Assembly (NCBI GenBank): GCA_964597355.1
Contig: CAZQWS010000002.1
Coordinates: 34,262 to 98,261 of the forward strand
DNA from: an uncultured Bdellovibrionales bacterium
GTDB taxonomy: Bacteria > Patescibacteriota > Minisyncoccia > Moranbacterales > UBA1568
Reading direction: 5' to 3'
Length of the DNA stretch: 64,000 nt
Shown: one piece after another, positions 3,562 to 24,951 of the stretch
Numbering within the stretch: position 1 is the stretch's first letter
Layout: every line of letters starts with the position of its first letter
The notes under the pieces: model-generated
The model's database searches: none
What the model was told of the DNA's origin: nothing
The model's input: the letters and a program-made list of their open reading frames with translations, nothing else
Translations under genes and position numbers: made by a program

Positions 3562-3563
3562 AA

Positions 3564-4948: not shown

Positions 4949-6370
4949 CTACCCGCGGAGGATGTTGATTCTCTCGAGGAGTGTGGAGAGTTCCTCCTTA
5001 ACACGAGTACGAGTTTCTTTTTCTTTGGCTATTTTTTCTACTGCATGGAGGACGGTAGTATGGTCTCTACCTCCGAAGTATTCTCCAATAGAAGAAAGTG
5101 GGGCTTCGAGTTCGGTTCTCATGAGGTACATAGCAACTTGCCTAGGATAAGCAATTTCTTTTTTACGGCCCTTTTTAACAAGGTCCTCTGGGGTGACATG
5201 ATAAAAATCCGTAATAAGGCTAGTGATATCTTCTGGAGTGAGCTTCTTTTTGTGTTGGAGGACACTGTCCCCAAGTACTTTTTGGACCAAAGAGAGACTG
5301 ATAGGTACGTGTTGGAGTTCGCTAAAAGCGGAAATCCGTGCCAGGGCACCTTCGAGCTCCCGCACGTTATTGGTAATATGTTCTGAGATGAAGTGGAGTG
5401 AGGCCGGATCAAGGGAGATTCCCTTCTCTTGAGCCTTAGCTTCGAGGATAGCCGCTCGAGTTTCAAGGTTGGGCCGACTAATATCAGCTATCATTCCTCC
5501 CTCAAAGCGAGAGCGAAGTCGTTCTTCGAGAGTGGGGATAGCTTTAGGAGGACGGTCACTGGAGATTACGATTTGCTTATTGATTTGGTAGAGAGCGTTA
5601 AAAATGTGGAAAAACTCATTTTGGGTTTTCTCACGACCGGAAAGAAATTGTACGTCATCGATAATAAGGAGGTCTATCTGTTCGTAAGCGGTCTTAAATT
5701 GATCAACTGACTGGTTTTTTATAGATTCGACTAATTCACTAGTGAAGCGTTCAGAAGTGATGTATTTTACACGCTTTTCAGGGGAATGTTTGAGAATCTC
5801 ATTCCCAAGGGACTGAATAAGATGGGTTTTCCCAAGTCCTACCCCGCCATAAATGAAAAGAGGGTTGTAGAGGTGCCCAAGGTTCTGGGATACAGCAAAA
5901 CAAGCAGCTCGAGCGAGTTCATTATTCTCAGCGACAATAAAATTCTCAAAAGTATAACGAGGGTTGAGGTTGTTTTTAAAAATGGAGGAAGAAGTAGTAG
6001 GAACATTGACAGAATCACCTATTTTCTTTCTAATAAAACTTGCTGATTGGTTAGGGTTGGTAAAAAATGGCTTAACCGCATCAATACTATTGACTACAAT
6101 ACCATTATGTGCCTTAGTCCTATTTTCTGGGACAATAGAACAACGAATCTCAGTGACTTCTGGGGTGAGGCTCTTGAGGGCCTTTAAGATGTAGAGGTTG
6201 TATTTATTCTCTAGCCATTCTTTCGCAAAACCATTAGGAACGGCGATAGTGGCCACTCCTTTTTCAAGTGAGAGGACAGTCGTGTTTTTGAACCAAGTAA
6301 CAAAATTAGCCCTAGAAAGAGAAAGTTCAATTTGGCCTAAGGCGGCTTCCCAAAGCTCTTCGTTGGTCAT
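4949..6370 (-). CDS. dnaA: Chromosomal replication initiator protein DnaA
   Basis: 473 aa; Walker A GGVGLGKTHL, AAA+ core and C-terminal DnaA-box-binding domain (ITNNVRELEGAL...). Confidence 0.95.
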   Translation of the reverse strand: MTNEELWEAALGQIELSLSRANFVTWFKNTTVLSLEKGVATIAVPNGFAKEWLENKYNLYILKALKSLTPEVTEIRCSIVPENRTKAHNGIVVNSIDAVKPFFTNPNQSASFIRKKIGDSVNVPTTSSSIFKNNLNPRYTFENFIVAENNELARAACFAVSQNLGHLYNPLFIYGGVGLGKTHLIQSLGNEILKHSPEKRVKYITSERFTSELVESIKNQSVDQFKTAYEQIDLLIIDDVQFLSGREKTQNEFFHIFNALYQINKQIVISSDRPPKAIPTLEERLRSRFEGGMIADISRPNLETRAAILEAKAQEKGISLDPASLHFISEHITNNVRELEGALARISAFSELQHVPISLSLVQKVLGDSVLQHKKKLTPEDITSLITDFYHVTPEDLVKKGRKKEIAYPRQVAMYLMRTELEAPLSSIGEYFGGRDHTTVLHAVEKIAKEKETRTRVKEELSTLLERINILRG

Positions 6371-6585
6371 ACCTTTTTAGAATAATGGCTTGAATAAAGG
6401 AATAACTTAGAAAATAGTGGATAAATCACAGTATATCATGGTGAGGGGAAACAATCACCTCTGAAAAGTTAATAATTTGTGGAGAAACTGTTCATAATGT
6501 GCGCAAAAATCAATAAGAGAAAAAGTACATTGACTTTTCTTGAGAGGTAAAATATACTGCTCTTGTTATTCGGTATCCATTCGTT
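6371..6585. promoter_or_regulatory. dnaA-rpmH divergent intergenic region: candidate oriC segment and divergent promoters
   Basis: DnaA-box-like 9-mers GTGGATAAA (6417-6425) and TGTGGAGAA (6478-6486); dnaA | rpmH-rnpA-yidC-jag synteny. Confidence 0.5.
6530..6558 (+). promoter_or_regulatory. Sigma-70-type promoter for the rpmH-rnpA-yidC-jag operon
   Basis: TTGACT (6530-6535), 17-nt spacer, TATACT (6553-6558), about 28 nt before the rpmH ATG. Confidence 0.5.
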
Positions 6586-6723
6586 ATGCCTAAAAGAACC
6601 TACCAACCAAAAACGCGCCGTCGAGCTCGCCGCCACGGTTTTTTGAAGCGCATGAGCACAAAAACCGGTCAGGTGGTTATCCAAAAACGTCGCCGCCAGG
6701 GCCGGAAGAAGCTTTCGGTCTAA
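6586..6723 (+). CDS. rpmH: 50S ribosomal protein L34
   Basis: 45 aa, absent from the ORF track because it is under 60 aa; translation [45 protein letters not shown] is canonical L34. Confidence 0.85.
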
Positions 6724-6739
6724 ATTCTTCATTCAACCT

Positions 6740-7072
6740 ATGCTTGGAAAGCCCAATCGATTACGAGGGAAAAGGCTTTTTCAAGAAGTTTTTGCTCGTG
6801 GGAAACGGGTTTTTGTTGATGGAGTGGGTTGTTTTTCACTCCCCCTGAAAGATGGTACTCTAGTAGTAGGAGTGACATTCACTCAAAAAACTTTCCCTCA
6901 CGCAGTCACCCGCCATCAATACAAACGGCGGTTACTCCACTTGGTACGAGAAGAAATCCCCTCAATACCGCAAGGGAGGGCCATAGTTTTCCATTTCCAG
7001 CGGCCACTCCCGAGACTTTCTCCCCTAGTATTACGGAGCATTGTCCAAAAACTTTTGTATCGTTCACTCTAA
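6740..7072 (+). CDS. rnpA: Ribonuclease P protein component
   Basis: 110 aa basic protein following rpmH; NRLRGKRLFQEVFARGKR motif. Confidence 0.85.
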   Translation: MLGKPNRLRGKRLFQEVFARGKRVFVDGVGCFSLPLKDGTLVVGVTFTQKTFPHAVTRHQYKRRLLHLVREEIPSIPQGRAIVFHFQRPLPRLSPLVLRSIVQKLLYRSL

Positions 7073-7086
7073 ACAGCATCTTTTCT

Positions 7087-7836
7087 ATGAGCACTTTGTA
7101 CCACGCTTTTATCTACGATCCTCTCTATAATGCTCTTGTTTTTTTCTATGATGTTTTCCCGTTTCAGGATTTCGGGGTCGCTATCATTCTTACGACCGTT
7201 TTAATCAAGGGAGTCTTCTACGGGCTTTCTCGAAAGCAGATAGAATCCCAGAAAAAGATGCAAGAGGTTCAGCCGAAGATCAAGGCACTTCAGGAACGAT
7301 ATAAAGATGACAAGGAAAAACAAACTCGGGCGATTATGGAGTGCTATAAAGAAAACAAAGTTAACCCTTTTGCTGGCTGTTTCCCGCTCATTGTTCAACT
7401 GGTGTTTTTCATTGCTTTTTATCAAGTGATTATTAGCTTCACAGGGAATGATTTCAAAATAGACGCGGCAAATCTCTATTCTTTTCTGCCCAATCCCGAA
7501 ACAGTGCATACGGAAGCCTTTGGATTCCTTGACCTTGTCAAAGCAGCTCCCTGGCTCGGGGCACTTGCGGCTTTGGCCCAGTATTTTCAGACCAAGATGC
7601 TGCTTCCCCACACTATGCCAGCTAAGAAAGAGGGGGGAAAGTCTGATATGGCTCAAGATATGGCTCAGATGATGGGGAAACAGATGCTCTATATTGGTCC
7701 AGCACTTATTTTCTTCTTTAGCTTCCAATTTCCGGCAGCTCTTTCGCTCTACTGGCTAGTCTCAACGCTCCTTTCATGGGGGCAGCAGAAGCTTATTTTT
7801 GATCGGCACCAACAAACTTCTTCTCATAGCGTATAA
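7087..7836 (+). CDS. yidC: Membrane protein insertase YidC (short form)
   Basis: The ORF-track frame 6829-7836 carries an unsupported 5' extension; the ATG at 7087 (MSTLYHAF...) gives about 249 aa with the conserved KALQERYKDDKEKQTRAIMECYKENKVNPFAGCFPLIVQ core; no yidD present. Confidence 0.85.
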   Translation: MSTLYHAFIYDPLYNALVFFYDVFPFQDFGVAIILTTVLIKGVFYGLSRKQIESQKKMQEVQPKIKALQERYKDDKEKQTRAIMECYKENKVNPFAGCFPLIVQLVFFIAFYQVIISFTGNDFKIDAANLYSFLPNPETVHTEAFGFLDLVKAAPWLGALAALAQYFQTKMLLPHTMPAKKEGGKSDMAQDMAQMMGKQMLYIGPALIFFFSFQFPAALSLYWLVSTLLSWGQQKLIFDRHQQTSSHSV

Positions 7837-7845
7837 ACCTCACCT

Positions 7846-8358
7846 ATGATTCCTCTCTCACCTCGAGAATCACTCTCTCTTCAAACCAAAGACTTGCTCC
7901 AACGGTTAGGTTTCATGGCCCAAGTTTCTGTAAGCGAAAAAGCTCTTCCAGAAGATCGGGTAGAATACCACTGTGATATTCAGGTAGCTGAAGGACAACA
8001 CCTTTTGATCGGACAACATGGAGCCAATCTTCAGGCTTTGCTCCACCTCTTACGGTTGCTTACGCGAACATCCCTTCCAGAACGAGCGGTGCTTAGTATT
8101 GATCTCAATCATTATTTTGCTGAAAAAAAGAGCTTCCTTGAACAAGAAACTATGCGGACAGTCAAAGAAGTAGTAGAAACGGGTCTCCCTATGGCCCTCC
8201 GACCGATGGTGGCCTATGAACGGAAATTGGTACACACCTTCCTTGCTTCCCATGACCGAGTCATGACAGAGAGCGTTGGGAGTGGCGAAGAACGTAAAGT
8301 CCTGATTCGTTTACGTGGAGAAAAGCCACTTGAAGAGTCCTCAGCTTCACACGAATAG
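7846..8358 (+). CDS. jag: Jag/KhpB-like RNA-binding protein (Jag_N, KH, R3H domains)
   Basis: 170 aa; R3H-like region RKLVHTFLASHDRVMTESVGSGEERKVLIRL; conserved position after yidC. Confidence 0.8.
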   Translation: MIPLSPRESLSLQTKDLLQRLGFMAQVSVSEKALPEDRVEYHCDIQVAEGQHLLIGQHGANLQALLHLLRLLTRTSLPERAVLSIDLNHYFAEKKSFLEQETMRTVKEVVETGLPMALRPMVAYERKLVHTFLASHDRVMTESVGSGEERKVLIRLRGEKPLEESSASHE

Positions 8359-8372
8359 AGTAGAATGGATTC

Positions 8373-9824
8373 ATGGCCCTGGCACGAAAAATTGCCTATA
8401 ATGTCGTTTTCAATTCGACCCTCAAGGTAGTCTCGACTGTTTTTATCGCGCTTCTCTCGATCCGGCTTATTACAGGGTACCTTGGGCAAGAAGGTTTTGG
8501 TGAGTATGCTACCGTACTGGCATTCTTTGCATTTTTTGGGGCGATTGGCGATCTTGGACTCGCTCATATAACTGCCAGAGAAATCGCGAAGCCCCAAGTT
8601 GATGAATCAACTATCCTTGGAAAGGTAGTGGCCCTGCGCCTCATAGCAAGTCTTGCACTTATTGTGGTGGCTCCACTGGCCCTATTCTTCCTGCACTATC
8701 GACACGAGGTAAAGGAAGGCATCATGATCGCTGTCGTTGCTTTACTGTTTGCCCAACTCTCCACCCTCCTCAACTCGTTGTATCAAAAACGATTAGCTAT
8801 GGATCGAGTGGCTCTCGTGGAGTTTGTAGGGAAAGGCCTCCAACTCGGGCTCATTTACACAGTTGTTCGCTTTGACCTTGGATTTACGGCGCTAGTTGGA
8901 GTGCTCTTGGCCAACATGTGTTTCAATGCGGCAGTCGTATTTTTGCTCTCGCGACCGCTCGTGAAGTTCTCACTTCATTTTGACATTCCTTTTTGGAAGA
9001 TTTTTCTCAAAGACACTCTTCCTCTAGGGGCTATGGCTTTTATCACTTTTCTTTATTTCAAAATGGATACTATCCTCCTCTCCATCCTGCAACCAGCTGC
9101 CGAGGTAGGCATTTACAACGTGGCCTACAAAATCATGGAGAACCTGATTTTCTTCCCAGCGATGTTGGTGGGACTCATTCTCCCACTACTCTCTCGGGCA
9201 TACCATAGTGAACGGGCCCGATTTGAAGAAATTGCTAACAAGACAGTCAAGGTGTTCTGTATCTTGGTTCTTCCGGTGGTTATTGGGACAGTGTTTCTTG
9301 CTCCGGATATTGTACGGATTGTGAGTGGGACAAGTTTTGAAGCTTCAGCGGGAGTTCTCCAGATCCTCGCCTTTTCTCTAGCGGGTATTTTCTTTGGGCA
9401 TTACTTCAATATGCTTATTCTGGTGGGGAACGCCCAAAAAAAACTGATGTATCTTTTACTTGGGATAGCGATAGTCAATATTAGTCTCAACATCTTTCTT
9501 ATCCAAATATTCTCTTACCGTGGAGCAGCTATCGCTTCAGCCGCAACCGAACTACTCGTCGTGTTGGTTTCTGCCGGGCTGGTTTGGAAGGCTTTACATT
9601 TCTTCCCGAAACCTGACCGCCTGCTCCCAATACTCTTTTCAGCCTTTGTGATGGTGGTTACACTCATGCTGCTTTCCTCAGCCACCTTTCTTATTGCGGG
9701 GGGTGGAGCAGTATTGATGTACGCACTTTCCCTCTGGGGATTTCGGGCCATTACCCCAGAAGAGCTAGCCAGTGTTTTTGCTGGTCGTTCAAACGAAGAG
9801 ACGCCTGATCCGGCGCTCTGGTGA
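8373..9824 (+). CDS. Polysaccharide biosynthesis protein / Wzx-like flippase (MOP superfamily)
   Basis: 483 aa, about 12-14 predicted TM helices, typical MOP flippase composition. Confidence 0.75.
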   Translation: MALARKIAYNVVFNSTLKVVSTVFIALLSIRLITGYLGQEGFGEYATVLAFFAFFGAIGDLGLAHITAREIAKPQVDESTILGKVVALRLIASLALIVVAPLALFFLHYRHEVKEGIMIAVVALLFAQLSTLLNSLYQKRLAMDRVALVEFVGKGLQLGLIYTVVRFDLGFTALVGVLLANMCFNAAVVFLLSRPLVKFSLHFDIPFWKIFLKDTLPLGAMAFITFLYFKMDTILLSILQPAAEVGIYNVAYKIMENLIFFPAMLVGLILPLLSRAYHSERARFEEIANKTVKVFCILVLPVVIGTVFLAPDIVRIVSGTSFEASAGVLQILAFSLAGIFFGHYFNMLILVGNAQKKLMYLLLGIAIVNISLNIFLIQIFSYRGAAIASAATELLVVLVSAGLVWKALHFFPKPDRLLPILFSAFVMVVTLMLLSSATFLIAGGGAVLMYALSLWGFRAITPEELASVFAGRSNEETPDPALW

Positions 9825-10684
9825 TTTTCTGTATGCCTAATCAATCCGTGCTTGTTATCGTCCTTAATTATCGAGGGAAAGATGTCCTCTTGCCTTGCCT
9901 TGCTTCGCTTCTTCCAACTCTTGGACCACAGGATGCTTGTCTGGTTGTAGACAATGGAGGAGAACCAGCCCTCATGGACTTAGTTAGGCAACAACTTCCT
10001 ACGGTGCGCATTCTCTCAACCGGAGTAAATCTTGGCTTCGCTCGGGGGATGAATGTTGGTTTACGGATTGCACATGAGGAAGGGTTTGAAGCTGCTTGGC
10101 TGCTCAATAATGATGTACGGGTGGAACCAGGAGCTTTGGCCGCTTTGAAGTGTGCCCAAAGAGATTATGTGGGGAGGAATATCTTCTCTCCAGTTATATT
10201 AAATAAAGATGGGCAGATATGGTTTGCCGGAGGGAGAATAAATTATTGGCGCATGCGGGTAGAACACAGAAGGGATGCCCCAAAAGAAATGGCCCCTTTC
10301 TCTACGCAGTTTTTGACGGGTTGTGCCCTGTTTATCCCACGCGAGACGTGGGAATCAATTGGTTTTCTGGATGAACGTTACTTTTTATATTATGAAGACG
10401 CAGAATATAGCGTACGAGCCAAAGTTCATGGAGGGAAACTGTGGGTGGTTCCAGAGGCCCGAGTAAAGCACGCAGAAGTCAGTGAAGCTCATCCAGAGAA
10501 AGTCTACTGGCTCGTCCGAAGTGGGGTGGAGTTTTTCTCTCGCCATACGGTCGGCTGGAGGCGGAGTTGGGTTAGGGTGTATCTTATCGCTCGGCGGAGC
10601 AAGAACTTTCTGGATCGATTCTTTTTTGGAACAGCGCTTGCCCACTCCATCAAACGGGCGTATACTGATGCCTCGATTAAGTAG
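9821..10684 (+). CDS. Family 2 glycosyltransferase
   Basis: N-terminal GT-A fold VLVIVLNYRGKDVLLPCLASL; D-x-D-like NND region. Confidence 0.8.
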   Translation: MIFCMPNQSVLVIVLNYRGKDVLLPCLASLLPTLGPQDACLVVDNGGEPALMDLVRQQLPTVRILSTGVNLGFARGMNVGLRIAHEEGFEAAWLLNNDVRVEPGALAALKCAQRDYVGRNIFSPVILNKDGQIWFAGGRINYWRMRVEHRRDAPKEMAPFSTQFLTGCALFIPRETWESIGFLDERYFLYYEDAEYSVRAKVHGGKLWVVPEARVKHAEVSEAHPEKVYWLVRSGVEFFSRHTVGWRRSWVRVYLIARRSKNFLDRFFFGTALAHSIKRAYTDASIK

Positions 10685-10686
10685 TT

Positions 10687-11475
10687 ATGTCCCAGCCATT
10701 CCTTTCACTCATTTTTGTTAACTACCAAAGCGCTGCCTTGCTCAAGCGGGCTATAGTTTCCTGGGAAAAGCCATTGGGAGGGCTCCCTTACGAGGTCATT
10801 GTGGTCAATAATGATCCAAATGAAAATGAGGCGATTGAGAGGCTTTGTGTCCCTGGCAAGGTGAGTGTAAGGAATCTCGGCAAGAATGTTGGCTTTGGAG
10901 CGGCTAATAATAGAGCCGCCGTTTTGGCTCAAGGCGAATGGTTATTTCTTCTTAATCCAGATACAGAATATGCGACTGGTTCTATAGAGGAGCTTTTGCC
11001 AGTGCTTCAGGCGTACCCTCATTCTTTGGGAGGAGTTTGTTTGATTGATGAACAGGACAAGAAGGAAGCGTGGAGTGGCGGGAGATTCCCTACTCTCTGG
11101 AAGCTTATTTGGCAGCACTTACAGAGAACTCCCGTTCGGGCACTCTGGACGCAGCCGATGTTTACTGAGACGGATTGGGTGAGTGGGGCAGCCCTCCTTA
11201 TTTCTCGAGAGAGTTTTAAACAGCTCAATGGGTTTGACGAGAACTTTTTCCTTTACTTTGAGGATGTTGATCTCGCCGAACGAGCCAAACAAAAAGGTTT
11301 GAGCGTGTGGCATTTTCCGAACCTAGTTGTGCGCCACAGAGGTGGAGCTAGCCACGGCGAACGTGCCAAGCAGAAACAAGCCTATTATGAAAGCGAGCGG
11401 CGTTATTTTTCAAAACATCGATCACCGCTTGAAGCTCGGTGTTTTGGCTGGTTGCAAAGAATATTTTTCTCCTAG
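10687..11475 (+). CDS. Family 2 glycosyltransferase
   Basis: LSLIFVNYQSAALLKRAIVSW...VIVVNNDPNE; FEDVDLAERAKQKG. Confidence 0.8.
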   Translation: MSQPFLSLIFVNYQSAALLKRAIVSWEKPLGGLPYEVIVVNNDPNENEAIERLCVPGKVSVRNLGKNVGFGAANNRAAVLAQGEWLFLLNPDTEYATGSIEELLPVLQAYPHSLGGVCLIDEQDKKEAWSGGRFPTLWKLIWQHLQRTPVRALWTQPMFTETDWVSGAALLISRESFKQLNGFDENFFLYFEDVDLAERAKQKGLSVWHFPNLVVRHRGGASHGERAKQKQAYYESERRYFSKHRSPLEARCFGWLQRIFFS

Positions 11476-11476
11476 T

Positions 11477-12736
11477 ATGCTTTTCCTGTTTGCTCAACTT
11501 TTTCTTTTGTTTCTCCCTTTCCAGTTCGCTGTGCCTCTAGGATCAGAGGACATTCCATTGCTTCGCTTGGTTGCTCTGGGATTCATCTTTCTTTGGGGGA
11601 TAAAAGTCTTGACGGAAAGAAAGTGTGTCTTCCCCCCGCTTTTTCCCCTTGCCCTCCTTTTGAGTTGGCTCTTTTCTTTGACGTTTAGTCTTTCCTTGGC
11701 CGAGGGTATCTCGCTTGGAATGCGCAAACTCATTTTTCTGTGGAATCTTCTTCCCCTTACTGTGGTGTGGTCTCTGTTTTTGGATGAGCAGAAAAAACTA
11801 ACTCATTTAATAAGAGCCCTTATTATAGGGGGGGCATTGAGCGCTCTGGTGGGAATTAGTATTTTTCTTGCTCAATTTGTGGTAGGCGTAGAAAAAACAT
11901 TTCACCTGCTCACAGAAACGGCACTTCCTTTTTTCCTTGGAGAACGTTTGGGGAATCTTGTCACTCTCTATCCGAGTCTTTTGGTAAATATTGGAGGCGA
12001 AACCTGGCTTCGGGCAACCGCTTTTTTCCCAGACCCCCATGTAGCCTCTTTCTTTTTCGGGATCATAGCCTGTCTCGCTTGGGGACTTTTTCTCGATACC
12101 AGGGATAAATTTTTTCTGTATTCGGGAAGCATCCTTCTTCTCGTAGACATTCTTACTTTTTCGCGGGGCGGTTACCTTGGCCTCTTGGCTGCTTTAGGTA
12201 CTTTTTTCTTTGTCCAGAAGAAGGAGTGGGGGGTAAAACCATGGGTAGGCTCCACGGCTCTTCTCCCCCTGCTTCTTTGGTTTGGAGTGCCGGTGTACCA
12301 ACGGTTTTTCTCAGTCTTTACCCTTGCCGATGCTTCTAGTTTGGATAGGCTTGCTCTTTGGGGAACAGCCTGGGAAACTATCCTCTACCATCCATGGGTT
12401 GGTCTAGGTTTAGGAAACTATGCTGAATGGATACATCCTGGCTTTGGAGCTAGTATTCCATATTATGCCCATAACCTATACCTTGATATTGCAACGGAGG
12501 GAGGCCTCATAAGCCTCTTCTTATTTCTTGGGCTCTGTAGTTGGAGTTTTGTTCGAGCGCTCCGGATGGCTTTGCAGGGAAGTGGACTAGCACTTGGAGT
12601 AACAGCTGCCTTTGCTCTTTATTTCACACACTCCTTCTTTGAGACAGCACTTTTCTCTCTTCACATCACTGTCCTCTTCTCTCTCCTCTTGGTACTTCCT
12701 TTCACCAGTAGCGCGAAGCAAACTCCTGTAGAATAA
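11477..12736 (+). CDS. O-antigen ligase / polymerase (Wzy_C family) membrane protein
   Basis: Start re-assigned to the ATG at 11477, one nt after the stop of the previous gene; multi-TM; Wzy_C-like ...GNYAEWIHPGFGASIPYYAHNLYLDIATEGGL. Confidence 0.7.
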   Translation: MLFLFAQLFLLFLPFQFAVPLGSEDIPLLRLVALGFIFLWGIKVLTERKCVFPPLFPLALLLSWLFSLTFSLSLAEGISLGMRKLIFLWNLLPLTVVWSLFLDEQKKLTHLIRALIIGGALSALVGISIFLAQFVVGVEKTFHLLTETALPFFLGERLGNLVTLYPSLLVNIGGETWLRATAFFPDPHVASFFFGIIACLAWGLFLDTRDKFFLYSGSILLLVDILTFSRGGYLGLLAALGTFFFVQKKEWGVKPWVGSTALLPLLLWFGVPVYQRFFSVFTLADASSLDRLALWGTAWETILYHPWVGLGLGNYAEWIHPGFGASIPYYAHNLYLDIATEGGLISLFLFLGLCSWSFVRALRMALQGSGLALGVTAAFALYFTHSFFETALFSLHITVLFSLLLVLPFTSSAKQTPVE

Positions 12737-12757
12737 GGGAGCAGATATGATGTATCT

Positions 12758-13969
12758 ATGGTAGCCTACCCTCTTTTTTTTCTTAGCCTGGTTTTTCTTC
12801 TTTTCCCTTTGGCCCACCTTCGATTCATTGAAGGTGTACCGGTTTACCTTTCTGAAATCCCACTTCTTTTTGTGCTGGTATGGTTTGCAACCTCACCAAC
12901 TTTCTTTCAGAATCTTAAGAAGTTTGTTTCTCAAGAGAAATGGATTATAGGAGGAGGAATTTTGTTTCTCGTAGGAGCTACCCTTCCCTTTTTTTTTCAA
13001 ACAGTTCCTGGCAGTTCCTTAGGATTACTTAAAAGTTTTATTGTCCTCCCACTGATGCTTATGACAACGGTAGGAGTTCTCGGACACGAGATAGCTTCCC
13101 AGAGAAGGATCCTTTCTGCTTGGTGGCTCGGTATTTTTGTAAGTGCTTTGGTGGGCACCATACTTCTTCTTGAGGACATACTCACCTATGATGGTCGTCT
13201 CGCTTCTTTGTACGCTTCGCCCAATCATTTTGCTATGCTACTTTCCCCAGGTGTTTTTATAGGACCCTTTCTTTTCAGGACGGCTGTATCAAAATGGCGA
13301 TGGTTCTATATTCTTGGGACCTGTCTGATACTCATAGCGCTCCTTGCTACCAGATCATATGCCTCAATAGTGGCAGTAACTTTCGTGAGTCTTTTCTGGG
13401 AGGGTCCTTGTAAAAGGAGCGGGGCATTTTCATGGAAACCTATTGCCCTCACTGTTTTTTTAGTGGTTGGCTGGCTCTTCCTTGAAGGAACAACTACAAA
13501 GTTTCAATCAATTCTTGATTTTGGTGGACGGTCATCTTCGGCTTCACGACTGATGATTTGGGAATCAGCTTGGAAAATGAGTCAGGATAGTTTTCCTGTG
13601 GGTATCGGCATCGGTCGCTTTCAAGAGGTTTACCTTGAGTACCAACGATACTTCCCACCCTATCTTGAATGGGCAGTGCCAGAGCCACACAATCTGTTGC
13701 TGAGCCTTTTCTTATCAACAGGACTGATGGGACTTCTTGGTTTTTTTATAGCCACTATAGGGGTAGGGAAAAAACTTTGGCAAGCTTGTTTTGGAGAAAG
13801 TAACTCTCTCTTTGGACGATTGTATTTCAGCCTCCTGAGTTGGATACTCTTAGTGGGATTAGTAGATACTCCCTATTTCAAGAACGATCTAAGCTTTCTT
13901 TTTTGGGGGGTTGTAGGTCTTTCGCTCGCTTTTTTGGCAAGCAGAGAAGAGAAACAAGCTACAGGTTGA
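12758..13969 (+). CDS. O-antigen ligase / polymerase-like (Wzy_C family) membrane protein
   Basis: 403 aa multi-TM; WESAWKMSQDSFPVGIGIGRFQEVY...PEPHNLLLSLFLSTGLMGLLGF matches the Wzy_C HN-Y-L...E-G motif. Confidence 0.65.
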   Translation: MVAYPLFFLSLVFLLFPLAHLRFIEGVPVYLSEIPLLFVLVWFATSPTFFQNLKKFVSQEKWIIGGGILFLVGATLPFFFQTVPGSSLGLLKSFIVLPLMLMTTVGVLGHEIASQRRILSAWWLGIFVSALVGTILLLEDILTYDGRLASLYASPNHFAMLLSPGVFIGPFLFRTAVSKWRWFYILGTCLILIALLATRSYASIVAVTFVSLFWEGPCKRSGAFSWKPIALTVFLVVGWLFLEGTTTKFQSILDFGGRSSSASRLMIWESAWKMSQDSFPVGIGIGRFQEVYLEYQRYFPPYLEWAVPEPHNLLLSLFLSTGLMGLLGFFIATIGVGKKLWQACFGESNSLFGRLYFSLLSWILLVGLVDTPYFKNDLSFLFWGVVGLSLAFLASREEKQATG

Positions 13970-15098
13970 CGCTGTAGAGTTTGTTGGTTGAACGATCAAT
14001 GAAGAAAAGTCTGGTTTCGTCTGGAGAAAGGAAGAGATTCGTCGCGTCAAATGCCTGAGCAATTTCATTAAGGGGGACGAGTCGTTCACGTTTCCCTGTT
14101 TTTAAATTCATTTTCCAAAAAGTATCTTTAGTATAGATTGGTTTTCCAAAGTAATCATTAGGGAGGATGGTACCGGAGACGAAGGCATTGGGGAGAGCGT
14201 AGTAGATAGTCTGATTATCTTTACTCCAAGCAACTTTGCCTATAAAGGTAGGAACCAAGAGGTCACGGTAGTTTCCCCCGTTTTCATCAACGATCCCGAG
14301 ACTTGGGGTACTTCCTCCACGAGTATCAACGCTGCTTATCAGAATGGAACGGCTATTGGGTGACCAGAGATAGTCACCTCCGTAGCGACCGGAAAGGAGG
14401 AGTTTCCTCCCTTCACCAGTGAAGCTTATGCTTTCGAGCCGACTTTCTTCCAATCCGTCAGGACGGGTCCAAAAGGCTACCTGGCTTGATTGGGGAATGG
14501 TGGAAACAAAGTAGTCGTTCGTATCAAGATCAGCAAGTTTCCTCCAATTTTCTCCCCGAGGAGAGGCGGTATTGATGGAGCGAGCGCCAGTGGTTGGGTC
14601 GGTGTAAACATAGTAAATTCCATCACCGATGGTATTCCAACTTAGGTGAGAGAGTTCTTTTCGGAGCGGGGTACTAGATTGGTTGCGGAAGTCGACGTAG
14701 TGCCAAAGGGGTGATTGATTTTCTTCAATCAGGACAAGGGCGCCAATAGCAACAGGTGACCAGAGTACCCGCTTTACCGTTCCAGGCAATGCCCCAAAGA
14801 GAGTGTCGGATTTATTAGTGTCGATAGCAGTGCGCTTGAGGGTCTTGTCTCGAAGTGAGTAGTAGAAGAGGTATTGCTCCTCTATTTTTGGGAACAAGAT
14901 TGACTCATTGAGAAACATTTCAAAAGCGAGGGAACTTGTAGGAATATCCGTCTCTTTTCCTGCTTGAGTGGTAGCGTATTTCTCTGGGTCAGCGATAGGA
15001 TTTGAGGTATTGTTTTTGAAGGCAAAGTTATACACCCCAAGGAAGATGAGGGTGAGGAGAAAAAATCCCAGTGATGCCCAAAAAACCTTTTTGATCAC
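13959..15098 (-). CDS. Hypothetical membrane-anchored beta-propeller-like (TolB/PD40-like) protein
   Basis: 379 aa; N-terminal TM anchor; repeated W-S-P/W-S-K-D blocks (WSPNSRSILISS, WSKDNQTIYY) suggest PD40-like repeats. Confidence 0.4.
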   Translation of the reverse strand: MIKKVFWASLGFFLLTLIFLGVYNFAFKNNTSNPIADPEKYATTQAGKETDIPTSSLAFEMFLNESILFPKIEEQYLFYYSLRDKTLKRTAIDTNKSDTLFGALPGTVKRVLWSPVAIGALVLIEENQSPLWHYVDFRNQSSTPLRKELSHLSWNTIGDGIYYVYTDPTTGARSINTASPRGENWRKLADLDTNDYFVSTIPQSSQVAFWTRPDGLEESRLESISFTGEGRKLLLSGRYGGDYLWSPNSRSILISSVDTRGGSTPSLGIVDENGGNYRDLLVPTFIGKVAWSKDNQTIYYALPNAFVSGTILPNDYFGKPIYTKDTFWKMNLKTGKRERLVPLNEIAQAFDATNLFLSPDETRLFFIDRSTNKLYSVNL

Positions 15099-15112: not shown

Positions 15113-16579
15113 TTAGTACACGTGAAATGAAGAGAGATTGGTCTGGGTCGAGTAGGATTTACAGTTAATACCGACTGCGGTGTAAGGTGCACAATCTTTT
15201 GAGTTTTCATAGAGCACGGTGAGGCCAGCTGCACGGAAAGCGTCATAGTAGGTCTTTATAGTTTCAGGATCAGTCCCTCCACCTGAATTGTTAAGATCGG
15301 CACATGTGCCGTTGGTATGACAGCCACTTAGGTGATTAACGGTCGGAGGCCATGATTCGGTTATACGCCAGCCATCGACATCACTGATAGCCTGGATTTT
15401 ACTGAGGAGACCAGAGTTGAGAAAACAAGTGCTGAGCCCGCAACCCTTGTTGGGAACACTTGCTGGAATGGCGACACAATTGCTGCAGGCCTGGCAAGAT
15501 ACGGAGCTTGATTGCGGACAGCAACTAGCTCCAGTGTTGGGTGTGCCGCAGTTAGCTCCCGGGGTGTTGGTGGTAGTTGTTGGTGTAGTGGTAGGAGTTG
15601 ATATCACACTCAACCCAGGTACCGCTAACCCCTCTACCAAATCAGGATTCAAGACATAGAGGAAAAGCCAAGCAAACAAAGCAATGATAATCCCGAGCAA
15701 GGCATCCACAATGATCGTCTTGGCTGTGCTCACCCGAGCCGTATTCCCCGCACTGGTCACATACATAAACCCGCCTACTGTAAGCATAAAGAGAGCGGCT
15801 ATCCCTACTGCCCAGAAAACAAACTTGTACAAACGTTCGAGATAGCTCCCTAAGTCTCCACTCGTTCCAGCCTGCCCAGGAATCTCTTCAAGGAGGGTGT
15901 AGTTGAGCTTGTTGAGGGAAGCTTCGGCAATAGCAGCCCCGCAGCAGGATTGGCCTGTGATGGTGCAACCGCCAGAAACAGAGACTCTCCCAAGGCTAGT
16001 GCACGTTTCCGTCAAGCTTCCCATACAATCTCCTCCCTGACTTTTACAACTCCCACCGCCACCAGCGATACAGCATTGACCAGAATTACACGTACCAGCA
16101 CCCGGTCCTTCACCAGTGCCACAAGCTGCTTTACATTGCCCGCCCACACTAGGATCAGTACACTGTTTGGCACTACAAGCCTGTGGCTTGGGCAGCGGAT
16201 TGGAAGCATTAAATTTCCCACTCGGGAGGCAACATTTACCTGAAGCGACACAATCAACTTTTAAATATGCGCCAGCATCAAAGCTGTTACTATCGCATGT
16301 GTCTCCAATAGCATTGTATCCCCCTAATTCTTTACACTGATCTGCCGGCCATTCGGAATATGAAGCAGGAGAACAGCAGACGGTACCGCCAGCACCTAAG
16401 CCCGTACATTTGTTGGTGGGATCGCTGATGGAGCCCTGACCATTGTTACAAGCAATCTGACAAGAACCGCTGTTGTCTGTGCCGCACATGGCAGCGGTGG
16501 CAGTTTTGGTGTTCCCTGCAAGAAGGATAGCTGAGGCCATCAAGAGAACGCCAGAAAAAATAAGTTTAAGGACGCGCAT
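15113..16579 (-). CDS. Cys-rich secreted protein with central VirB2/T4SS-pilin-like two-helix domain and Thr/Pro linker
   Basis: 488 aa; signal peptide; about 45 Cys in two ectodomain blocks; hydrophobic hairpin FVFWAVGIAALFMLTVGGFMYVTSAGN...AKTIIVDALLGIIIALFAWLFLYVL resembles a VirB2/TrbC-type pilin core; TPTTTPTTTTNTPG linker. Confidence 0.5.
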   Translation of the reverse strand: MRVLKLIFSGVLLMASAILLAGNTKTATAAMCGTDNSGSCQIACNNGQGSISDPTNKCTGLGAGGTVCCSPASYSEWPADQCKELGGYNAIGDTCDSNSFDAGAYLKVDCVASGKCCLPSGKFNASNPLPKPQACSAKQCTDPSVGGQCKAACGTGEGPGAGTCNSGQCCIAGGGGSCKSQGGDCMGSLTETCTSLGRVSVSGGCTITGQSCCGAAIAEASLNKLNYTLLEEIPGQAGTSGDLGSYLERLYKFVFWAVGIAALFMLTVGGFMYVTSAGNTARVSTAKTIIVDALLGIIIALFAWLFLYVLNPDLVEGLAVPGLSVISTPTTTPTTTTNTPGANCGTPNTGASCCPQSSSVSCQACSNCVAIPASVPNKGCGLSTCFLNSGLLSKIQAISDVDGWRITESWPPTVNHLSGCHTNGTCADLNNSGGGTDPETIKTYYDAFRAAGLTVLYENSKDCAPYTAVGINCKSYSTQTNLSSFHVY

Positions 16580-16726: not shown

Positions 16727-16775
16727 GTTGTTTCTTTTGAGGATAAAAAACACTCAAGCTGTTATACTTGAGTGT
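16727..16775. terminator. Bidirectional rho-independent terminator downstream of nrdB
   Basis: Hairpin ACACTCAAG-ctgttata-CTTGAGTGT flanked by A-run and T-run. Confidence 0.5.
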
Positions 16776-24042: not shown

Positions 24043-24126
24043 GCCCAGGTGGCGGAATTGGTATACGCGCTAGCTTGAGGTGCTAGTTCCCGCAAGGGAT
24101 TGGAGGTTCGAGTCCTCTCTTGGGCA
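24043..24126 (+). tRNA. tRNA-Leu (anticodon GAG)
   Basis: Manual fold: acceptor GCCCAGG/CTTGGGC, anticodon loop TTGAGGT, long variable arm, T-loop GGTTCGAGTCC. Confidence 0.7.
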
Positions 24127-24178
24127 CAGAAAAGGCAAAGGGCGGCAAGCCCTTTTTCTTTTGCTAGAATAGATATAC

Positions 24179-24215
24179 GCGTGCTTAGCTCAGTTGGTTA
24201 GAACATCTCGTTTAC
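24179..24215 (+). pseudogene. tRNA-Val-like 5'-half fragment, partial tandem duplicate of the downstream tRNA-Val
   Basis: TAGCTCAGTTGGTTAGAACATCTCGTTTAC is near-identical to the D-arm and anticodon stem of the tRNA-Val at 24264, but no T-arm or acceptor 3' strand follows; the 10-mer CACCGAGAGG is also duplicated. Confidence 0.4.
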
Positions 24216-24263
24216 CCACCAGAAACGCTCTGCGTATGCGGTGCGGGCGGGCACCGAGAGGTT

Positions 24264-24337
24264 GGGCAGTTAGCTCAGTTGGTTAGAGCATCTCGTTTAC
24301 ACCGAGAGGGTCAGAGGTTCGAGTCCTCTACTGCCCA
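24264..24337 (+). tRNA. tRNA-Val (anticodon TAC)
   Basis: Acceptor GGGCAGT/ACTGCCC, D-arm TAGCTCAGTTGGTTAGAGC, anticodon loop TTTACAC, T-loop GGTTCGAGTCC. Confidence 0.75.
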
Positions 24338-24386
24338 CACAGGACAAGTATTGATTTTTTTTCTCGTTCAGGGATAATGGGAAATG

Positions 24387-24469
24387 TTTCGTTATAGGCC
24401 GGGGTAGCTCAGTGGTAGAGCGAAAGACTGAAAATCTTTGCGTCGGCAGTTCAATTCTGCCCCCCGGCA
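24387..24469 (+). tRNA. tRNA-Phe (anticodon GAA)
   Basis: Acceptor GCCGGGG/CCCCGGC, anticodon stem AAAGA/TCTTT with loop CTGAAAA, T-loop GTTCAATTC. Confidence 0.75.
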
Positions 24470-24490
24470 CAGGTTCTTGTTTTATATCGA

Positions 24491-24563
24491 GGGTCCGTAG
24501 CTCAGCGGTTAGAGCGGGCGACTCATAATCGCTTGGTCGATGGTTCGATTCCATCCGGACCCA
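24491..24563 (+). tRNA. tRNA-Met (anticodon CAT), elongator or tRNA-Ile2 (lysidine) type; tilS is present in this window
   Basis: Acceptor GGGTCCG/CGGACCC, anticodon loop CTCATAA, T-loop GGTTCGATTCC; lacks the three G-C pairs typical of initiator tRNA. Confidence 0.7.
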
Positions 24564-24683
24564 CGGAAGAGTTGAAAAAGAAAGAAGAAAAATGTAAAAT
24601 TTGTGCCAGATCAAAGTTGAAGCGGGCCTGCCCGCCGAAAGCTTTGCAAAGGTCGCCGCCACCAAGGTTTTGGCGGACTATAA

Positions 24684-24755
24684 GCGGGTATCGTATAGCG
24701 GCTATTATGAGTCCTTGCCAAGGACTAGATAGGGGTTCGACTCCCCTTACCCGCT
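24684..24755 (+). tRNA. tRNA-Gly (anticodon GCC), CCA encoded
   Basis: Acceptor GCGGGTA/TACCCGC, anticodon stem AGTCC/GGACT with loop TTGCCAA, T-arm GGGGTTCGACTCCCC. Confidence 0.7.
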
Positions 24756-24763
24756 CCAAAATA

Positions 24764-24797
24764 AAACAAGCGCCCATAAGGACGCTTGTTTTATTTC
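24764..24797. terminator. Rho-independent terminator after the tRNA cluster
   Basis: AACAAGCG-cccataagga-CGCTTGTT followed by TTATTTC. Confidence 0.5.
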
Positions 24798-24951
24798 TTG
24801 GGTTGATAGGGAGTCGAACGGGTGGGAGCGAGACGAGTTTCCTTTCAACAGGAAGGAAGCGATGACGAGTGTCGACGGATGCGAATGAATGAGCATTCGG
24901 CGCCACCCAGGACAAGGAATGAGTGAGCGACGGCGAACGAGTGACGCGAAA

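What the first reader, a model, noticed from the sequence alone, without database searches (positions are those of the whole stretch)
15113..16579. Large cysteine-rich secreted protein with a central VirB2/T4SS-pilin-like two-helix core
The 488-aa protein has:
- a signal peptide;
- an N-terminal ectodomain of about 200 aa with roughly 30 Cys (CxxC, CC and CxC spacing);
- a two-helix hydrophobic hairpin (FVFWAVGIAALFMLTVGGFMYVTSAGN...AKTIIVDALLGIIIALFAWLFLYVL) that looks like the VirB2/TrbC conjugative-pilin core;
- a Thr/Pro linker (TPTTTPTTTTNTPG);
- a second Cys-rich C-terminal domain of about 150 aa.

No T4SS ATPase (VirB4/VirD4/VirB11) is present in the window, so the pilin-like module seems to be used in a different surface-display context. 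It sits next to a TolB-like beta-propeller gene. If the pilin-like membrane anchor presents large disulfide-rich ectodomains, this is a candidate cell-surface or episymbiont attachment structure.
Basis: partly seen in the sequence, partly recalled or inferred. Interest (0 to 1): 0.6.

Follow-up and report, generated by a model that had tools for sequence, protein, structure and literature searches.

The report
Secretion-system pilin fused to wall-cutting enzyme
This gene from an ultrasmall (CPR/Patescibacteria) bacterium encodes a type IV secretion pilin-like membrane hairpin that carries cysteine-rich modules on one end and a predicted zinc cell-wall peptidase (Hedgehog/DD-peptidase fold) on the other, a fusion found in hundreds of related proteins and not described in the papers I could search.

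Summary
The ORF is real (15113-16579, minus strand, 488 aa) and the described layout holds, with small corrections. There are 24 Cys in the N-domain, not about 30; CC occurs but CxC does not.

The two-helix core belongs to the CPR "T4SS_pilin" family PF18895. This protein scores 26.0 bits against a cutoff of 26.6, and 89 of 94 relatives match. Its profile finds 169 proteins, and the 120 best listed are stand-alone pilins of 94-174 aa.

It is a Hedgehog/DD-peptidase (LAS, M15-like) zinc-peptidase fold, with H-x6-D, a terminal His and two Glu kept in about 98% of 209 relatives. In all 118 relatives where the hairpin end could be located, the region after it looks like a peptidoglycan hydrolase: LAS-type, SLT/lysozyme-like or VanY.

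The window has no T4SS ATPase. However, the downstream 379-aa gene is homologous to the gene that follows pilins inside CPR T4SS clusters. In a Yonathbacteria contig the same pilin::Hh fusion sits directly after virB4.

Best reading: an elaborated VirB2-like pilin carrying a wall peptidase, working with a T4SS encoded elsewhere. This is a new variant of a known kind. All evidence is computational.

The parts
15113..16579 (-). Whole CDS, 488 aa: signal peptide, four Cys modules, pilin hairpin, T/P linker, Hh/DD-peptidase-like domain
   Evidence: ORF listing. An identical protein, P0001, is in public data, and 132 homologues have E<=1e-3. The full-length AF2 model has mean pLDDT 81.9.
16490..16579 (-). 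Sec-type signal peptide (res 1-~30; MRVLKLIFSGVLLMASAILLAGNTKTATAA)
   Evidence: Hydropathy peak at res 1-24. The A-x-A motif is read from the sequence. No dedicated signal-peptide predictor was available.
15929..16489 (-). N-terminal ectodomain (res 31-217): four tandem six-Cys modules, each ending in CC (24 Cys)
   Evidence: Cys positions and spacing. pLDDT is 70-95 across the modules. Module number varies from 0 to 4 among 120 relatives. No Pfam match, and none of the 50 listed Foldseek PDB matches (all E>1) was other than a helical hairpin.
15626..15907 (-). VirB2-like pilin core (res 225-318): LNYTLLEEIPG motif, TM helix 1, loop TSAGNTARVSTAK, TM helix 2, NPDLV motif
   Evidence: PF18895 at res 247-310, E 9.9e-6. 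Profile A2 gives E down to 1e-27 against stand-alone pilins. Shared conserved positions are G270, A286, K287, A293, G296. Modelled helices are 243-278 and 280-310.
15551..15625 (-). Flexible Thr/Pro-rich linker (res 319-343)
   Evidence: Read from the sequence. pLDDT is below 50 for res 323-341.
15116..15550 (-). C-terminal Hedgehog/DD-peptidase (LAS, M15-like) fold domain (res 344-488). Putative Zn ligands H421, D428, H486. Conserved E408, H416, E458. 12 Cys.
   Evidence: AF2 model pLDDT 90.1. The top 14 Foldseek PDB hits are Hedgehog N-domains, 13 of them with prob 0.82-0.99. The HMM search of the PDB returns Hedgehog proteins as the top 20 hits, E about 0.2. Residue conservation was measured over 209 domains. 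One relative matches Pfam HH_signal at E 8e-4.
13959..15098 (-). Co-directional downstream partner gene, 14 nt after the pilin stop: 379 aa, N-terminal TM helix plus probable PD40-like beta-propeller
   Evidence: It follows the pilin gene in every syntenic Moranbacteria locus examined. It is homologous to the gene downstream of pilins inside T4SS clusters: L018 77 bits, L019 65 bits, L020 36 bits. PD40 match is weak.
16750..16775 (-). Terminator-like hairpin followed by a T-run (read on the minus strand), between the RNR small-subunit gene and the pilin gene
   Evidence: It suggests that the pilin and partner genes form their own transcription unit (inference).

Best explanation
The gene encodes an elaborated VirB2-like (PF18895) type IV secretion pilin from a Moranbacteria-lineage CPR/Patescibacteria bacterium.

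Inferred biogenesis: Sec export and leader cleavage leave a two-helix hairpin in the membrane. The short basic loop faces the cytoplasm and both termini face outside. This puts four disulfide-knotted Cys modules (N-end) and a disulfide-stabilised zinc peptidase of the Hedgehog/DD-peptidase (LAS/M15-like) fold (C-end, on a flexible Thr/Pro tether) on the cell surface.

Inferred function: the conserved pilin core lets the protein dock to, or be polymerised by, a VirB4-type T4SS encoded elsewhere in the genome. It probably acts together with the co-transcribed TM/beta-propeller partner. The peptidase head cuts peptide stems or cross-links of peptidoglycan at the site of the machine. That would supply the VirB1-like wall-opening activity that most CPR T4SS loci lack, and/or attack the wall of the host cell the bacterium sits on.

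Shown by computation: the domain identities, conservation of the catalytic motif, the family-wide pairing of the pilin core with hydrolase heads, and the genomic link of the pilin+partner pair to T4SS clusters.

Inferred only: enzymatic activity, substrate, pilus incorporation, and the target wall (own or host).
For: 1. Pilin core.
- PF18895 hit, and 89 of 94 relatives match.
- The core profile finds 169 proteins; the 120 listed are stand-alone CPR pilins (median 133 aa) that share the N-flank Y-x-(L/P)-L-x-x-(I/L)-P-G motif, the loop A-K and the C-flank N-P-x-L-V motif.
- Several of those stand-alone pilins also match TrbC/VirB2 PF04956.

2. C-domain.
- Confident model (pLDDT 90).
- The best structural matches are Hedgehog N-domains, and the same family tops the sequence-profile search of the PDB in the same register.
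- Conservation over 209 domains: H421 207, D428 208, H416 204, E408 205, E458 203; H486 in 105 of 105 aligned.
- H-x6-D plus a terminal His matches the Hh/DD-peptidase zinc site described in PMC6027127.

3. Family logic.
- After the hairpin, 52 of 118 relatives carry this domain and 58 carry other heads with LAS-type HxH/Hx6D signatures.
- Seven carry SLT/lysozyme-like heads and one carries VanY.
- 121 of 135 further cluster representatives that contain the C-domain also contain the pilin core.
- The same syntenic slot holds different heads in different genomes: P0006 and P0095.

4. T4SS link.
- Stand-alone relatives lie in the order VirB6-like, PrgI, TraC-like, VirB4, X, pilin, partner, next to Jag-YidC-RnpA-DnaA.
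- The window's 379-aa neighbour is homologous to that partner.
- In L004 (Ca. Yonathbacteria) the order is VirB4, a 399-aa gene, a 289-aa pilin::Hh fusion, then the partner.
- 13 of 15 Moranbacteria genomes read in Table S1 of PMC12102498 have VirB4.
Against: - No T4SS gene other than the pilin and partner lies in the 64-kb window, or within +/-10 kb in eight syntenic Moranbacteria loci. T4SS presence in this particular genome is untested.
- The PF18895 score of this protein is just under the Pfam cutoff (26.0 vs 26.6).
- Neither the core profile nor hhalign detects solved or typed VirB2 sequences directly.
- Foldseek on the full model returns only generic helical hairpins.
- The Hedgehog-fold match is moderate (TM about 0.45, E about 0.02). 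hhalign of this head type against ShhN is weak (prob 4%).
- The classical H-x-H motif is S-F-H here.
- A pilin with about 185 aa plus about 145 aa of extra globular mass per subunit may not pack into a VirB2-type filament.
- No activity or localisation data exist.
Confidence: 0.6

Rival explanations
1. T4SS-independent housekeeping autolysin. The two-helix hairpin is only a membrane anchor for a peptidoglycan peptidase that remodels the bacterium's own wall during growth or division. It would work with the neighbouring envelope-polysaccharide genes and the beta-propeller protein.
For: The gene sits in a conserved oriC-proximal housekeeping and envelope block: YidC, Jag, Wzx, GT2, two Wzy_C, RNR, SOD, Prx. 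There is no T4SS gene within +/-10 kb in any syntenic Moranbacteria locus. The C-domain is more conserved than the core, as expected for an enzyme with a constant substrate.
Against: A mere anchor would not need the conserved extracellular flanking motifs and loop residues shared with stand-alone T4SS-cluster pilins. The partner gene is the one that follows pilins in T4SS clusters. The same fusion is the in-cluster pilin next to virB4 in L004. The C-domain is almost never found without the pilin core.
Confidence: 0.2
2. One reading: a non-enzymatic attachment structure. The pilin-like anchor displays disulfide-rich ectodomains that bind a host surface, and the Hedgehog-like domain acts as a ligand or binding module, as in animals, rather than as a peptidase.
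For: The number of Cys modules varies from 0 to 4, which suits adaptive surface binding. CPR bacteria are often episymbionts (PMC12102498). Animal Hedgehog N-domains act as ligands. The first His of H-x-H is missing in this protein.
Against: The residues equivalent to the zinc ligands and general base are kept in about 98% of 209 domains. Alternative heads at the same position are bona fide enzymes: SLT, SLT_3, VanY and canonical HxH/Hx6D LAS types. Binding and catalysis are not mutually exclusive, and the N-modules may well be the binding part.
Confidence: 0.12
3. Pro-protein or secretion carrier. The pilin core only delivers the protein to the membrane or T4SS. The N- and/or C-domains are then cleaved off (for example near NKL|NYT or in the T/P linker) and released as soluble factors, leaving a normal-sized pilin.
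For: In stand-alone pilins the Y-x-P-L-x-P-L-P-G motif is the mature N-terminus right after the leader. TrbC and VirB2 pilins are known to be trimmed at both ends (my own knowledge of RP4 TrbC and Ti VirB2 processing). The linkers are disordered.
Against: There is no evidence for a processing protease or cleavage motif. Nothing here tests processing.
Confidence: 0.08

Closest known systems
VirB2-like pilins of Patescibacteria T4SS (Pfam PF18895 T4SS_pilin; Wang et al. 2023 Cell, PMC10633639; Quinonero-Coronel et al. 2025, PMC12102498)
   Same: Signal peptide plus two-helix hairpin with a short basic loop. Shared flanking motifs and invariant Gly/Ala/Lys positions. CPR-restricted. OriC-proximal location next to YidC/Jag/DnaA. 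Followed by the same partner gene.
   Different: The described pilins are small (94-174 aa in the set found here). This protein has a 185-aa Cys-module array inserted after the leader and a 145-aa enzyme-like domain after the hairpin. It is separated from virB4 in this lineage. Neither paper's main text mentions pilin-hydrolase fusions.
T4SS cell-wall hydrolases: VirB1 of Agrobacterium, and PrgK/TcpG/CwlT-type enzymes of Gram-positive conjugation systems
   Same: The proposed role is a membrane-tethered peptidoglycan hydrolase working at a T4SS. Relatives of this protein carry SLT domains like VirB1 at the same position.
   Different: The catalytic domain differs: LAS/Hedgehog-type zinc peptidase instead of SLT, CHAP or NlpC/P60. 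The anchor is a pilin hairpin rather than a single TM helix or signal peptide. There is no sequence homology to VirB1.
Hh/DD-peptidase (LAS; MEROPS M15-like) zinc peptidases, including bacterial Hedgehog-like proteins (Roelink 2018, PMC6027127), VanX/VanY and phage M15 endolysins
   Same: Predicted fold. H-x6-D motif. Terminal zinc-ligand His. A conserved Glu at the position aligned with Shh E177. T-E-x-W aligned with Shh T-E-G-W. An extracytoplasmic, wall-directed context.
   Different: No Pfam M15 or HH_signal hit for this protein. It has S-F-H instead of H-x-H. About 27 residues are inserted between the Glu and the last His. There are six predicted disulfides, including a Cys pair bracketing the zinc His (C420, C426). 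It is almost always fused to a pilin core.
TolB/PD40-repeat beta-propeller proteins (for the partner gene)
   Same: Weak PD40-repeat similarity and SPD(G/E)-like repeat strings. Envelope location.
   Different: It is anchored by an N-terminal TM helix in a monoderm. It falls below every family threshold. Its conserved association is with T4SS pilin genes, not with Tol-Pal.

Membership tests
Pfam PF18895 T4SS_pilin (CPR VirB2-like pilins) | Match to the family HMM at or above the gathering score | tested here: inconclusive
   26.0 bits vs cutoff 26.6, E 9.9e-6, res 247-310 covering profile positions 9-71 of 71. 89 of 94 relatives match at E<=1e-3. The core profile reaches stand-alone PF18895 pilins at E 1e-27.
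Pfam PF18895 T4SS_pilin (CPR VirB2-like pilins) | Cleavable leader followed by a two-helix hydrophobic hairpin with a short polar/basic loop | tested here: met
   Hydropathy. AF2 helices 243-278 and 280-310 at pLDDT about 90. Loop TSAGNTARVSTAK with conserved A286 and K287.
Pfam PF18895 T4SS_pilin (CPR VirB2-like pilins) | Genomic association with virB4 and other T4SS genes | tested here: not met
   None in the window. It is met for the same fusion type in L004 and for the closest stand-alone pilins. The rest of this genome could not be searched.
TrbC/VirB2 pilins (Pfam PF04956) | Detectable sequence similarity to canonical VirB2/TrbC | tested here: not met
   No PF04956 hit at E<=1. Only 1 of 55 relatives matched, at E 0.0013. 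No solved VirB2/TraA chain was hit by the core profile at E<=10. The only link is transitive, through stand-alone CPR pilins that match both PF18895 and PF04956.
TrbC/VirB2 pilins (Pfam PF04956) | Assembly into an extracellular conjugative-type pilus | not testable with these tools
   Needs microscopy or biochemistry. No multimer prediction was available.
Hh/DD-peptidase (LAS, M15-like) zinc peptidases | Hedgehog/DD-peptidase fold | tested here: met
Hh/DD-peptidase (LAS, M15-like) zinc peptidases | H-x(6)-D zinc-binding motif | tested here: met
   H421-TNGTCA-D428. H is conserved in 207 of 209 domains and D in 208 of 209. It aligns to Shh H141/D148 (motif definition from PMC6027127).
Hh/DD-peptidase (LAS, M15-like) zinc peptidases | H-x-H motif | tested here: not met
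   This protein has S484-F485-H486. Only the second His is present, though it is found in 105 of 105 aligned relatives. 23 of 105 relatives have His at the first position. Stand-alone relatives P0252-P0256 have H-L-H.
Hh/DD-peptidase (LAS, M15-like) zinc peptidases | Catalytic Glu equivalent to Shh E177 | tested here: inconclusive
   E458 in L-Y-E aligns with Shh Y-Y-E177 in both HMMER and hhalign and is conserved in 203 of 209 domains. However, about 27 residues separate it from the last His, against 5 in Shh. Model coordinates could not be inspected.
Hh/DD-peptidase (LAS, M15-like) zinc peptidases | Match to a curated family HMM (Peptidase_M15*, VanY, HH_signal) | tested here: not met
   No Pfam hit for the isolated C-domain at E<=1. 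One relative hits HH_signal at E 8e-4.
VirB1-type T4SS lytic transglycosylases | SLT/lysozyme-like catalytic domain | tested here: not met
   Absent in this protein. It is present at the equivalent position in relatives P0058, P0096, P0120 and P0099. The resemblance is functional only.
TolB-like PD40 beta-propeller (partner gene 13959-15098) | PD40 repeats above threshold | tested here: inconclusive
   PD40 scores E 0.0075, 16.7 bits vs cutoff 20.9. An orthologue has a faint Tricorn_N hit. No NCBIfam or PDB sequence hit.

The most novel reading that the evidence does not exclude
CPR bacteria build a catalytically 'armed' conjugative-type pilus. VirB2-like subunits, all or a subset, carry tethered peptidoglycan hydrolase heads that are interchangeable between lineages, plus a variable number of Cys-knot modules. 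The T4SS filament or its base would then enzymatically drill through a cell wall, either the host's at the episymbiotic contact or the bacterium's own. This would replace the missing VirB1 and could explain why the CPR T4SS and its pilins are essential for epibiotic growth.
Probability: 0.25. Interest if true: 0.85.

Novelty: new variant of a known kind. Interest (0 to 1): 0.62.

Why it matters
The T4SS of Patescibacteria is widespread, sits near the replication origin, and is essential for epibiotic growth in the one species tested. Its function is unknown. It unusually combines Gram-positive-type machinery with VirB2-like pilins, while most genomes lack a recognisable VirB1 wall hydrolase (PMC12102498, PMC10633639, PMC12857230).

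A large CPR-restricted family was found here: at least 469 clusters at 50% identity for this head type alone. In it the pilin module is covalently joined to peptidoglycan-hydrolase heads. That gives a concrete, testable answer to how these machines get through a wall, and possibly how ultrasmall episymbionts breach their hosts.

It also defines a new, very conserved, disulfide-rich branch of the Hedgehog/DD-peptidase fold that no Pfam model recognises, and a new six-Cys module. Both are easy targets for expression and biochemistry. If the fusion turns out to be T4SS-independent, it is still a new type of membrane-anchored autolysin in organisms whose cell-wall biology is almost unexplored.

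Tried and rejected
- **Direct similarity to canonical VirB2.** The core profile against all PDB chains returned only unrelated membrane proteins at E>0.7. Foldseek of the full-length model against the PDB returned only generic helical hairpins at E>1. These tests are uninformative rather than negative for a two-helix module.
- **Viral structures.** BFVD search with the C-domain gave only weak hits (E>0.1), though these were enriched in Peptidase M15A, DD-carboxypeptidase and tail lysins.
- **Locus search with an alignment.** The search for related loci with alignment A1 failed because no stretch was conserved enough. It was repeated with a single C-domain sequence.
- **Extending beyond the window.** I tried to look for virB4 outside the window by looking up flanking window proteins. 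Neither product is on record, and P0001 is indexed only on a 2.3-kb Logan contig.
- **Phage holin-endolysin cassette.** Rejected: no PHROG hit for either gene, and the synteny is chromosomal and oriC-proximal across many MAGs.
- **Lipoprotein.** Rejected: there is no lipobox Cys in the leader.
- **First clustering of C-terminal heads.** The initial clustering over-merged two types. It was redone with an HMM plus stricter BLAST.
- **Sandbox hhalign between head types.** Results were only partly supportive: type C vs ShhN 67%, type B vs P0012-type 59%, type A vs ShhN 4%.
- **Partner protein.** NCBIfam and PDB sequence searches found nothing.
Full report
**1. Observation**

The window carries a single ORF at 15113..16579 on the minus strand, 488 aa. 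An identical protein (P0001) exists in public data.

- A hydrophobic leader at res 1-24, with an A-x-A-type site near A29.
- A Cys-rich region at res 32-213.
- Two hydrophobic helices at about 250-278 and 283-316, containing the quoted strings.
- A Thr/Pro linker at about 324-340.
- A second Cys-rich domain at 344-488.

Cysteine makes up 7.4% of the protein, against 0.65% in the other 49 window ORFs. There are 24 Cys in the N-domain and 12 in the C-domain. Both counts are even, which fits full disulfide pairing outside the cell.

- The N-domain has 24 Cys, not about 30.
- It consists of four tandem ~40-45-aa six-Cys modules, each ending in CC.
- CxxC is found only in the C-domain.
- CxC is absent.

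**2. Genomic setting**

The window is chromosomal and lies near the replication origin. Pfam identifies:
- dnaN, dnaA, YidC and Jag(R3H).
- A Wzx-like flippase, a GT2 and two Wzy_C proteins.
- Both subunits of class I ribonucleotide reductase, SOD and a peroxiredoxin.
- PBP1, GyrA, PNPase, FtsH and others.

No T4SS family turned up in the 50 ORFs of 146 aa or more that were scanned, which include every ORF of 300 aa or more. An HMM of the pilin core finds no second pilin in the window.

The pilin gene is preceded by a terminator-like hairpin after the RNR small-subunit gene. It is followed, 14 nt after its stop, by a co-directional 379-aa gene.

Named homologues and syntenic loci are from Candidatus Moranbacteria/Moraniibacteriota and other Paceibacteria MAGs. 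The source is therefore most likely a Moranbacteria-lineage CPR bacterium.

**3. The hairpin is a CPR T4SS-pilin module**

- Pfam PF18895 (T4SS_pilin) matches res 247-310 at E 9.9e-6. The score is 26.0 bits against a gathering score of 26.6.
- NCBIfam gives only a weak hit to a Mycoplasma ICE pilin-like family.
- 89 of 94 family members match PF18895.
- A profile of the core (A2) finds 169 proteins with E down to 1e-27. The 120 listed are stand-alone CPR pilins of 94-174 aa, and several also carry PF04956 TrbC/VirB2.
- These small pilins share the flanking Y-x-(L/P)-L-x-x-(I/L)-P-G and N-P-x-L-V motifs. They also share G270, A286, K287, A293 and G296.
- AlphaFold2 models two long helices, 243-278 and 280-310, at pLDDT about 90.

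Direct similarity to canonical VirB2 was not detectable. The link to VirB2/TrbC is therefore transitive and rests on family annotation. This is the state of the art in the literature for these pilins (PMC12102498; PMC12857230).

**4. The C-terminal domain is a Hedgehog/DD-peptidase-fold zinc peptidase candidate**

The domain is highly conserved: about 60-80% identity among the 50 relatives in alignment A1 that align over the whole domain, and 66-82% in the curated C-domain alignment A4. That is more conserved than the pilin core. Pfam does not recognise it.

Evidence for the fold:
- A profile search of all PDB sequences returns Sonic, Indian and Desert Hedgehog N-domains as the top 20 hits (E about 0.2). 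It aligns I-T-E-S-W...H...C-H-x-x-G-x-C-A-D to V-T-E-G-W...H...L-H-Y-E-G-R-A-V-D, and L-Y-E-S-K to Y-Y-E-S-K.
- The AlphaFold2 model of res 336-488 is confident (pLDDT 90.1, pTM 0.84).
- Foldseek against the PDB puts Hedgehog N-domains at ranks 1-14. Thirteen of these have prob 0.82-0.99 (rank 10 has 0.87), E is 0.02-0.14, and TM is up to 0.45.
- One relative matches Pfam HH_signal at E 8e-4.
- BFVD hits are weak but are mostly M15 peptidases and phage tail lysins.

Conservation over 209 domain instances:

| Residue | Conserved in |
|---|---|
| E408 | 205 of 209 |
| H416 | 204 of 209 |
| C420 | 205 of 209 |
| H421 | 207 of 209 |
| G424 | 207 of 209 |
| C426 | 206 of 209 |
| D428 | 208 of 209 |
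| E458 | 203 of 209 |
| H486 | 105 of 105 aligned |

H421-x6-D428 plus H486 reproduces the H141/D148/H183 zinc site of Shh, and E458 aligns with the general base E177 (PMC6027127).

The classical H-x-H is S-F-H in this protein. 23 of 105 relatives, and the ~175-aa single-TM stand-alone versions, do have H-x-H.

I conclude the domain is very probably an active LAS/M15-like metallopeptidase. Its substrate is inferred to be peptidoglycan, not shown.

**5. Family-level pattern**

In 118 of the 120 homologues I could locate the end of the hairpin. Their C-terminal heads are:

| Head type | Count |
|---|---|
| This Hedgehog-like type | 52 |
| TS-x-x-GG-x-H...S-x-H-Y-x-G-x-A-V-D...N-H-I-H-V type (H-x6-D in 29/30, terminal H-x-H in 30/30) | 30 |
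| Two or three further types with terminal H-x-H | 28 |
| SLT or SLT_3/lysozyme-like | 7 |
| VanY | 1 |

Every head is therefore of a peptidoglycan-hydrolase kind.

An exhaustive phmmer search with res 372-488 finds 469 clusters (50% identity) at E<=1e-3. The domain is almost always at the C-terminus of 280-430-aa proteins. 121 of 135 new representatives also contain the pilin core, and the rest are mostly fragments or short single-TM forms.

N-terminal Cys modules vary from 0 to 4 copies: 55, 22, 19, 13 and 11 proteins respectively.

In Moranbacteria the same syntenic slot holds proteins with different heads, namely P0006 and P0095. The architecture is therefore: leader, then 0-4 Cys modules, then a conserved pilin stalk, then a tether, then an exchangeable wall-hydrolase head.

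**6. Link to the T4SS**

Synteny around the gene is conserved in Moranbacteria MAGs. The order is:
- dnaA, YidC, Jag, Wzx, GT2 and Wzy_C x2 on one side.
- The ~380-aa partner, then the pilin fusion.
- RNR, SOD and Prx on the other side.

No virB4 lies within +/-10 kb in any of them.

The closest stand-alone pilins (P0140, P0133, P0123) lie in clusters ordered as follows: TrbL/VirB6-like, PrgI/VirB3, TraC-like, VirB4 (~605 aa), a 340-400-aa gene, the pilin, and a 400-470-aa gene. These clusters sit immediately next to Jag-YidC-RnpA and dnaA-dnaN.

The window's 379-aa neighbour is homologous to that 400-470-aa gene: 77, 65 and 36 bits against L018, L019 and L020. The Moranbacteria orthologues score 103-110 bits against the L018 partner.

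In L004 (Ca. Yonathbacteria UBA11698) the order is as follows:
- VirB4 at 6422-8257.
- A 399-aa gene.
- A 289-aa pilin that itself carries the Hedgehog-like head, at 9470-10339.
- The partner at 10329-11714.

So this fusion type can be the in-cluster T4SS pilin. The Moranbacteria pair looks like the terminal piece of the ancestral oriC-proximal T4SS cluster, left in place while the rest lies elsewhere.

Of the 15 Moranbacteria genomes in the part of Table S1 of PMC12102498 that I read, 13 are scored VirB4-positive.

**7. Mechanism (inferred)**

- Sec export and leader cleavage give a hairpin with both ends outside, which is the topology of VirB2-family pilins.
- The disulfide-rich N-modules and the tethered peptidase are extracellular.
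- The conserved core, with the partner protein, couples the protein to the T4SS, either as a (minor) pilus subunit or as a docked membrane component.
- The head cleaves peptidoglycan peptides locally.

[quoted passage not shown] A pilin-borne hydrolase would do so. Whether the target is the bacterium's own wall or the host's cannot be decided here. The high conservation of the head favours a constant substrate. The variable Cys modules could provide target binding.

**8. Rivals**

- A T4SS-independent autolysin that uses the hairpin only as an anchor (confidence about 0.2).
- A processed pro-protein that releases its domains (about 0.08).

A phage holin-endolysin origin was rejected (plus the synteny).

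**9. Novelty**

VirB2-like pilins of CPR are known. Full-text searches did not retrieve any description of pilin-hydrolase fusions, of this Hedgehog-like head, or of the Cys modules. The library is incomplete, so prior description elsewhere cannot be excluded.

I rate this a new variant of a known kind, with interest 0.62. The architecture is unexpected for T4SS pilins and bears directly on an open question: what the essential CPR T4SS does, and how it passes the wall. All evidence is computational.

Noticed in passing
window 8373-13969 (+): Wzx-like flippase 8373-9824, GT2 9821-10684, Wzy_C 11327-12736 and 12758-13969: An envelope-glycan gene set lies convergent (tail-to-tail) with the pilin/partner pair, and this arrangement is conserved across Moranbacteria loci. 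Wzy_C is also the family of the PglL/PilO O-oligosaccharyltransferases that glycosylate type IV pilins (my own knowledge). The Thr/Pro linker of the fusion could therefore be O-glycosylated. This is speculative.
   Followed up: no
L004 6422-11714 (Ca. Yonathbacteria UBA11698, DMXP01000001.1): A complete T4SS-type cluster in which the pilin gene directly after virB4 and a 399-aa gene is a 289-aa pilin::Hedgehog-like fusion. A second pilin-like hit lies at L004 3-269 on the other strand.
   Followed up: partly
L015 7238-9937: An 899-aa protein with weak PF18895 and faint TSP_1 hits lies directly upstream of the 293-aa fusion P0047 in a Parcubacteria contig. This is a giant pilin-domain protein in tandem with a pilin-hydrolase fusion.
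   Followed up: no
L013 8659-9423: An extra 254-aa ORF containing a second copy of the pilin core sits just upstream of the fusion gene P0010. This is a small pilin array at the Moranbacteria slot.
   Followed up: no
window 33314-37050: A low-GC stretch (GC 0.37 at 34-36 kb). It holds a third, sub-threshold Wzy_C-like ORF (33314-34687), a secreted protein with bacterial TSP3 repeats (35008-35985), and a 352-aa protein with an N-terminal hydrophobic segment, no family match, and a C-terminus ending CNGGC (35992-37050).
   Followed up: no
window 27682-28224 and 57343-58287: Two further wall-lytic-type proteins are in the window: a 3D-domain protein, and a G5 / G5-linked-ubiquitin-like / DPBB (RpfB-like) protein. 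The 3D-domain gene is also conserved near the locus in relatives (L016, L017).
   Followed up: no
window 24043-24758, 28316-28542, 32882-33203, 37178-37252: Ten tRNA genes, including a cluster of five (Leu, Val, Phe, Met, Gly) within about 720 bp. The ORF 24523-24915 in my greedy list overlaps tRNA-Met and tRNA-Gly and is probably not a gene.
   Followed up: no
L008 and L009 (CAZOKB010000005.1, CAYLPD010000029.1): MAGs titled 'uncultured Bdellovibrionales' carry the Moranbacteria-type pilin-fusion plus partner locus, with 38-50% identity in the partner protein. The taxonomic labels look wrong, or the bins are mixed.
   Followed up: no
window 1-10000: dnaN and dnaA at 3564-6370, with the minimum of cumulative GC skew at about 4-10 kb. 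The window spans the probable replication origin, the region where PMC12102498 reports T4SS genes in many Paceibacteria.
   Followed up: partly
window 53633-54250 (-): A 205-aa ORF with 7 Cys (3.4%, the second highest in the window) and no Pfam match.
   Followed up: no
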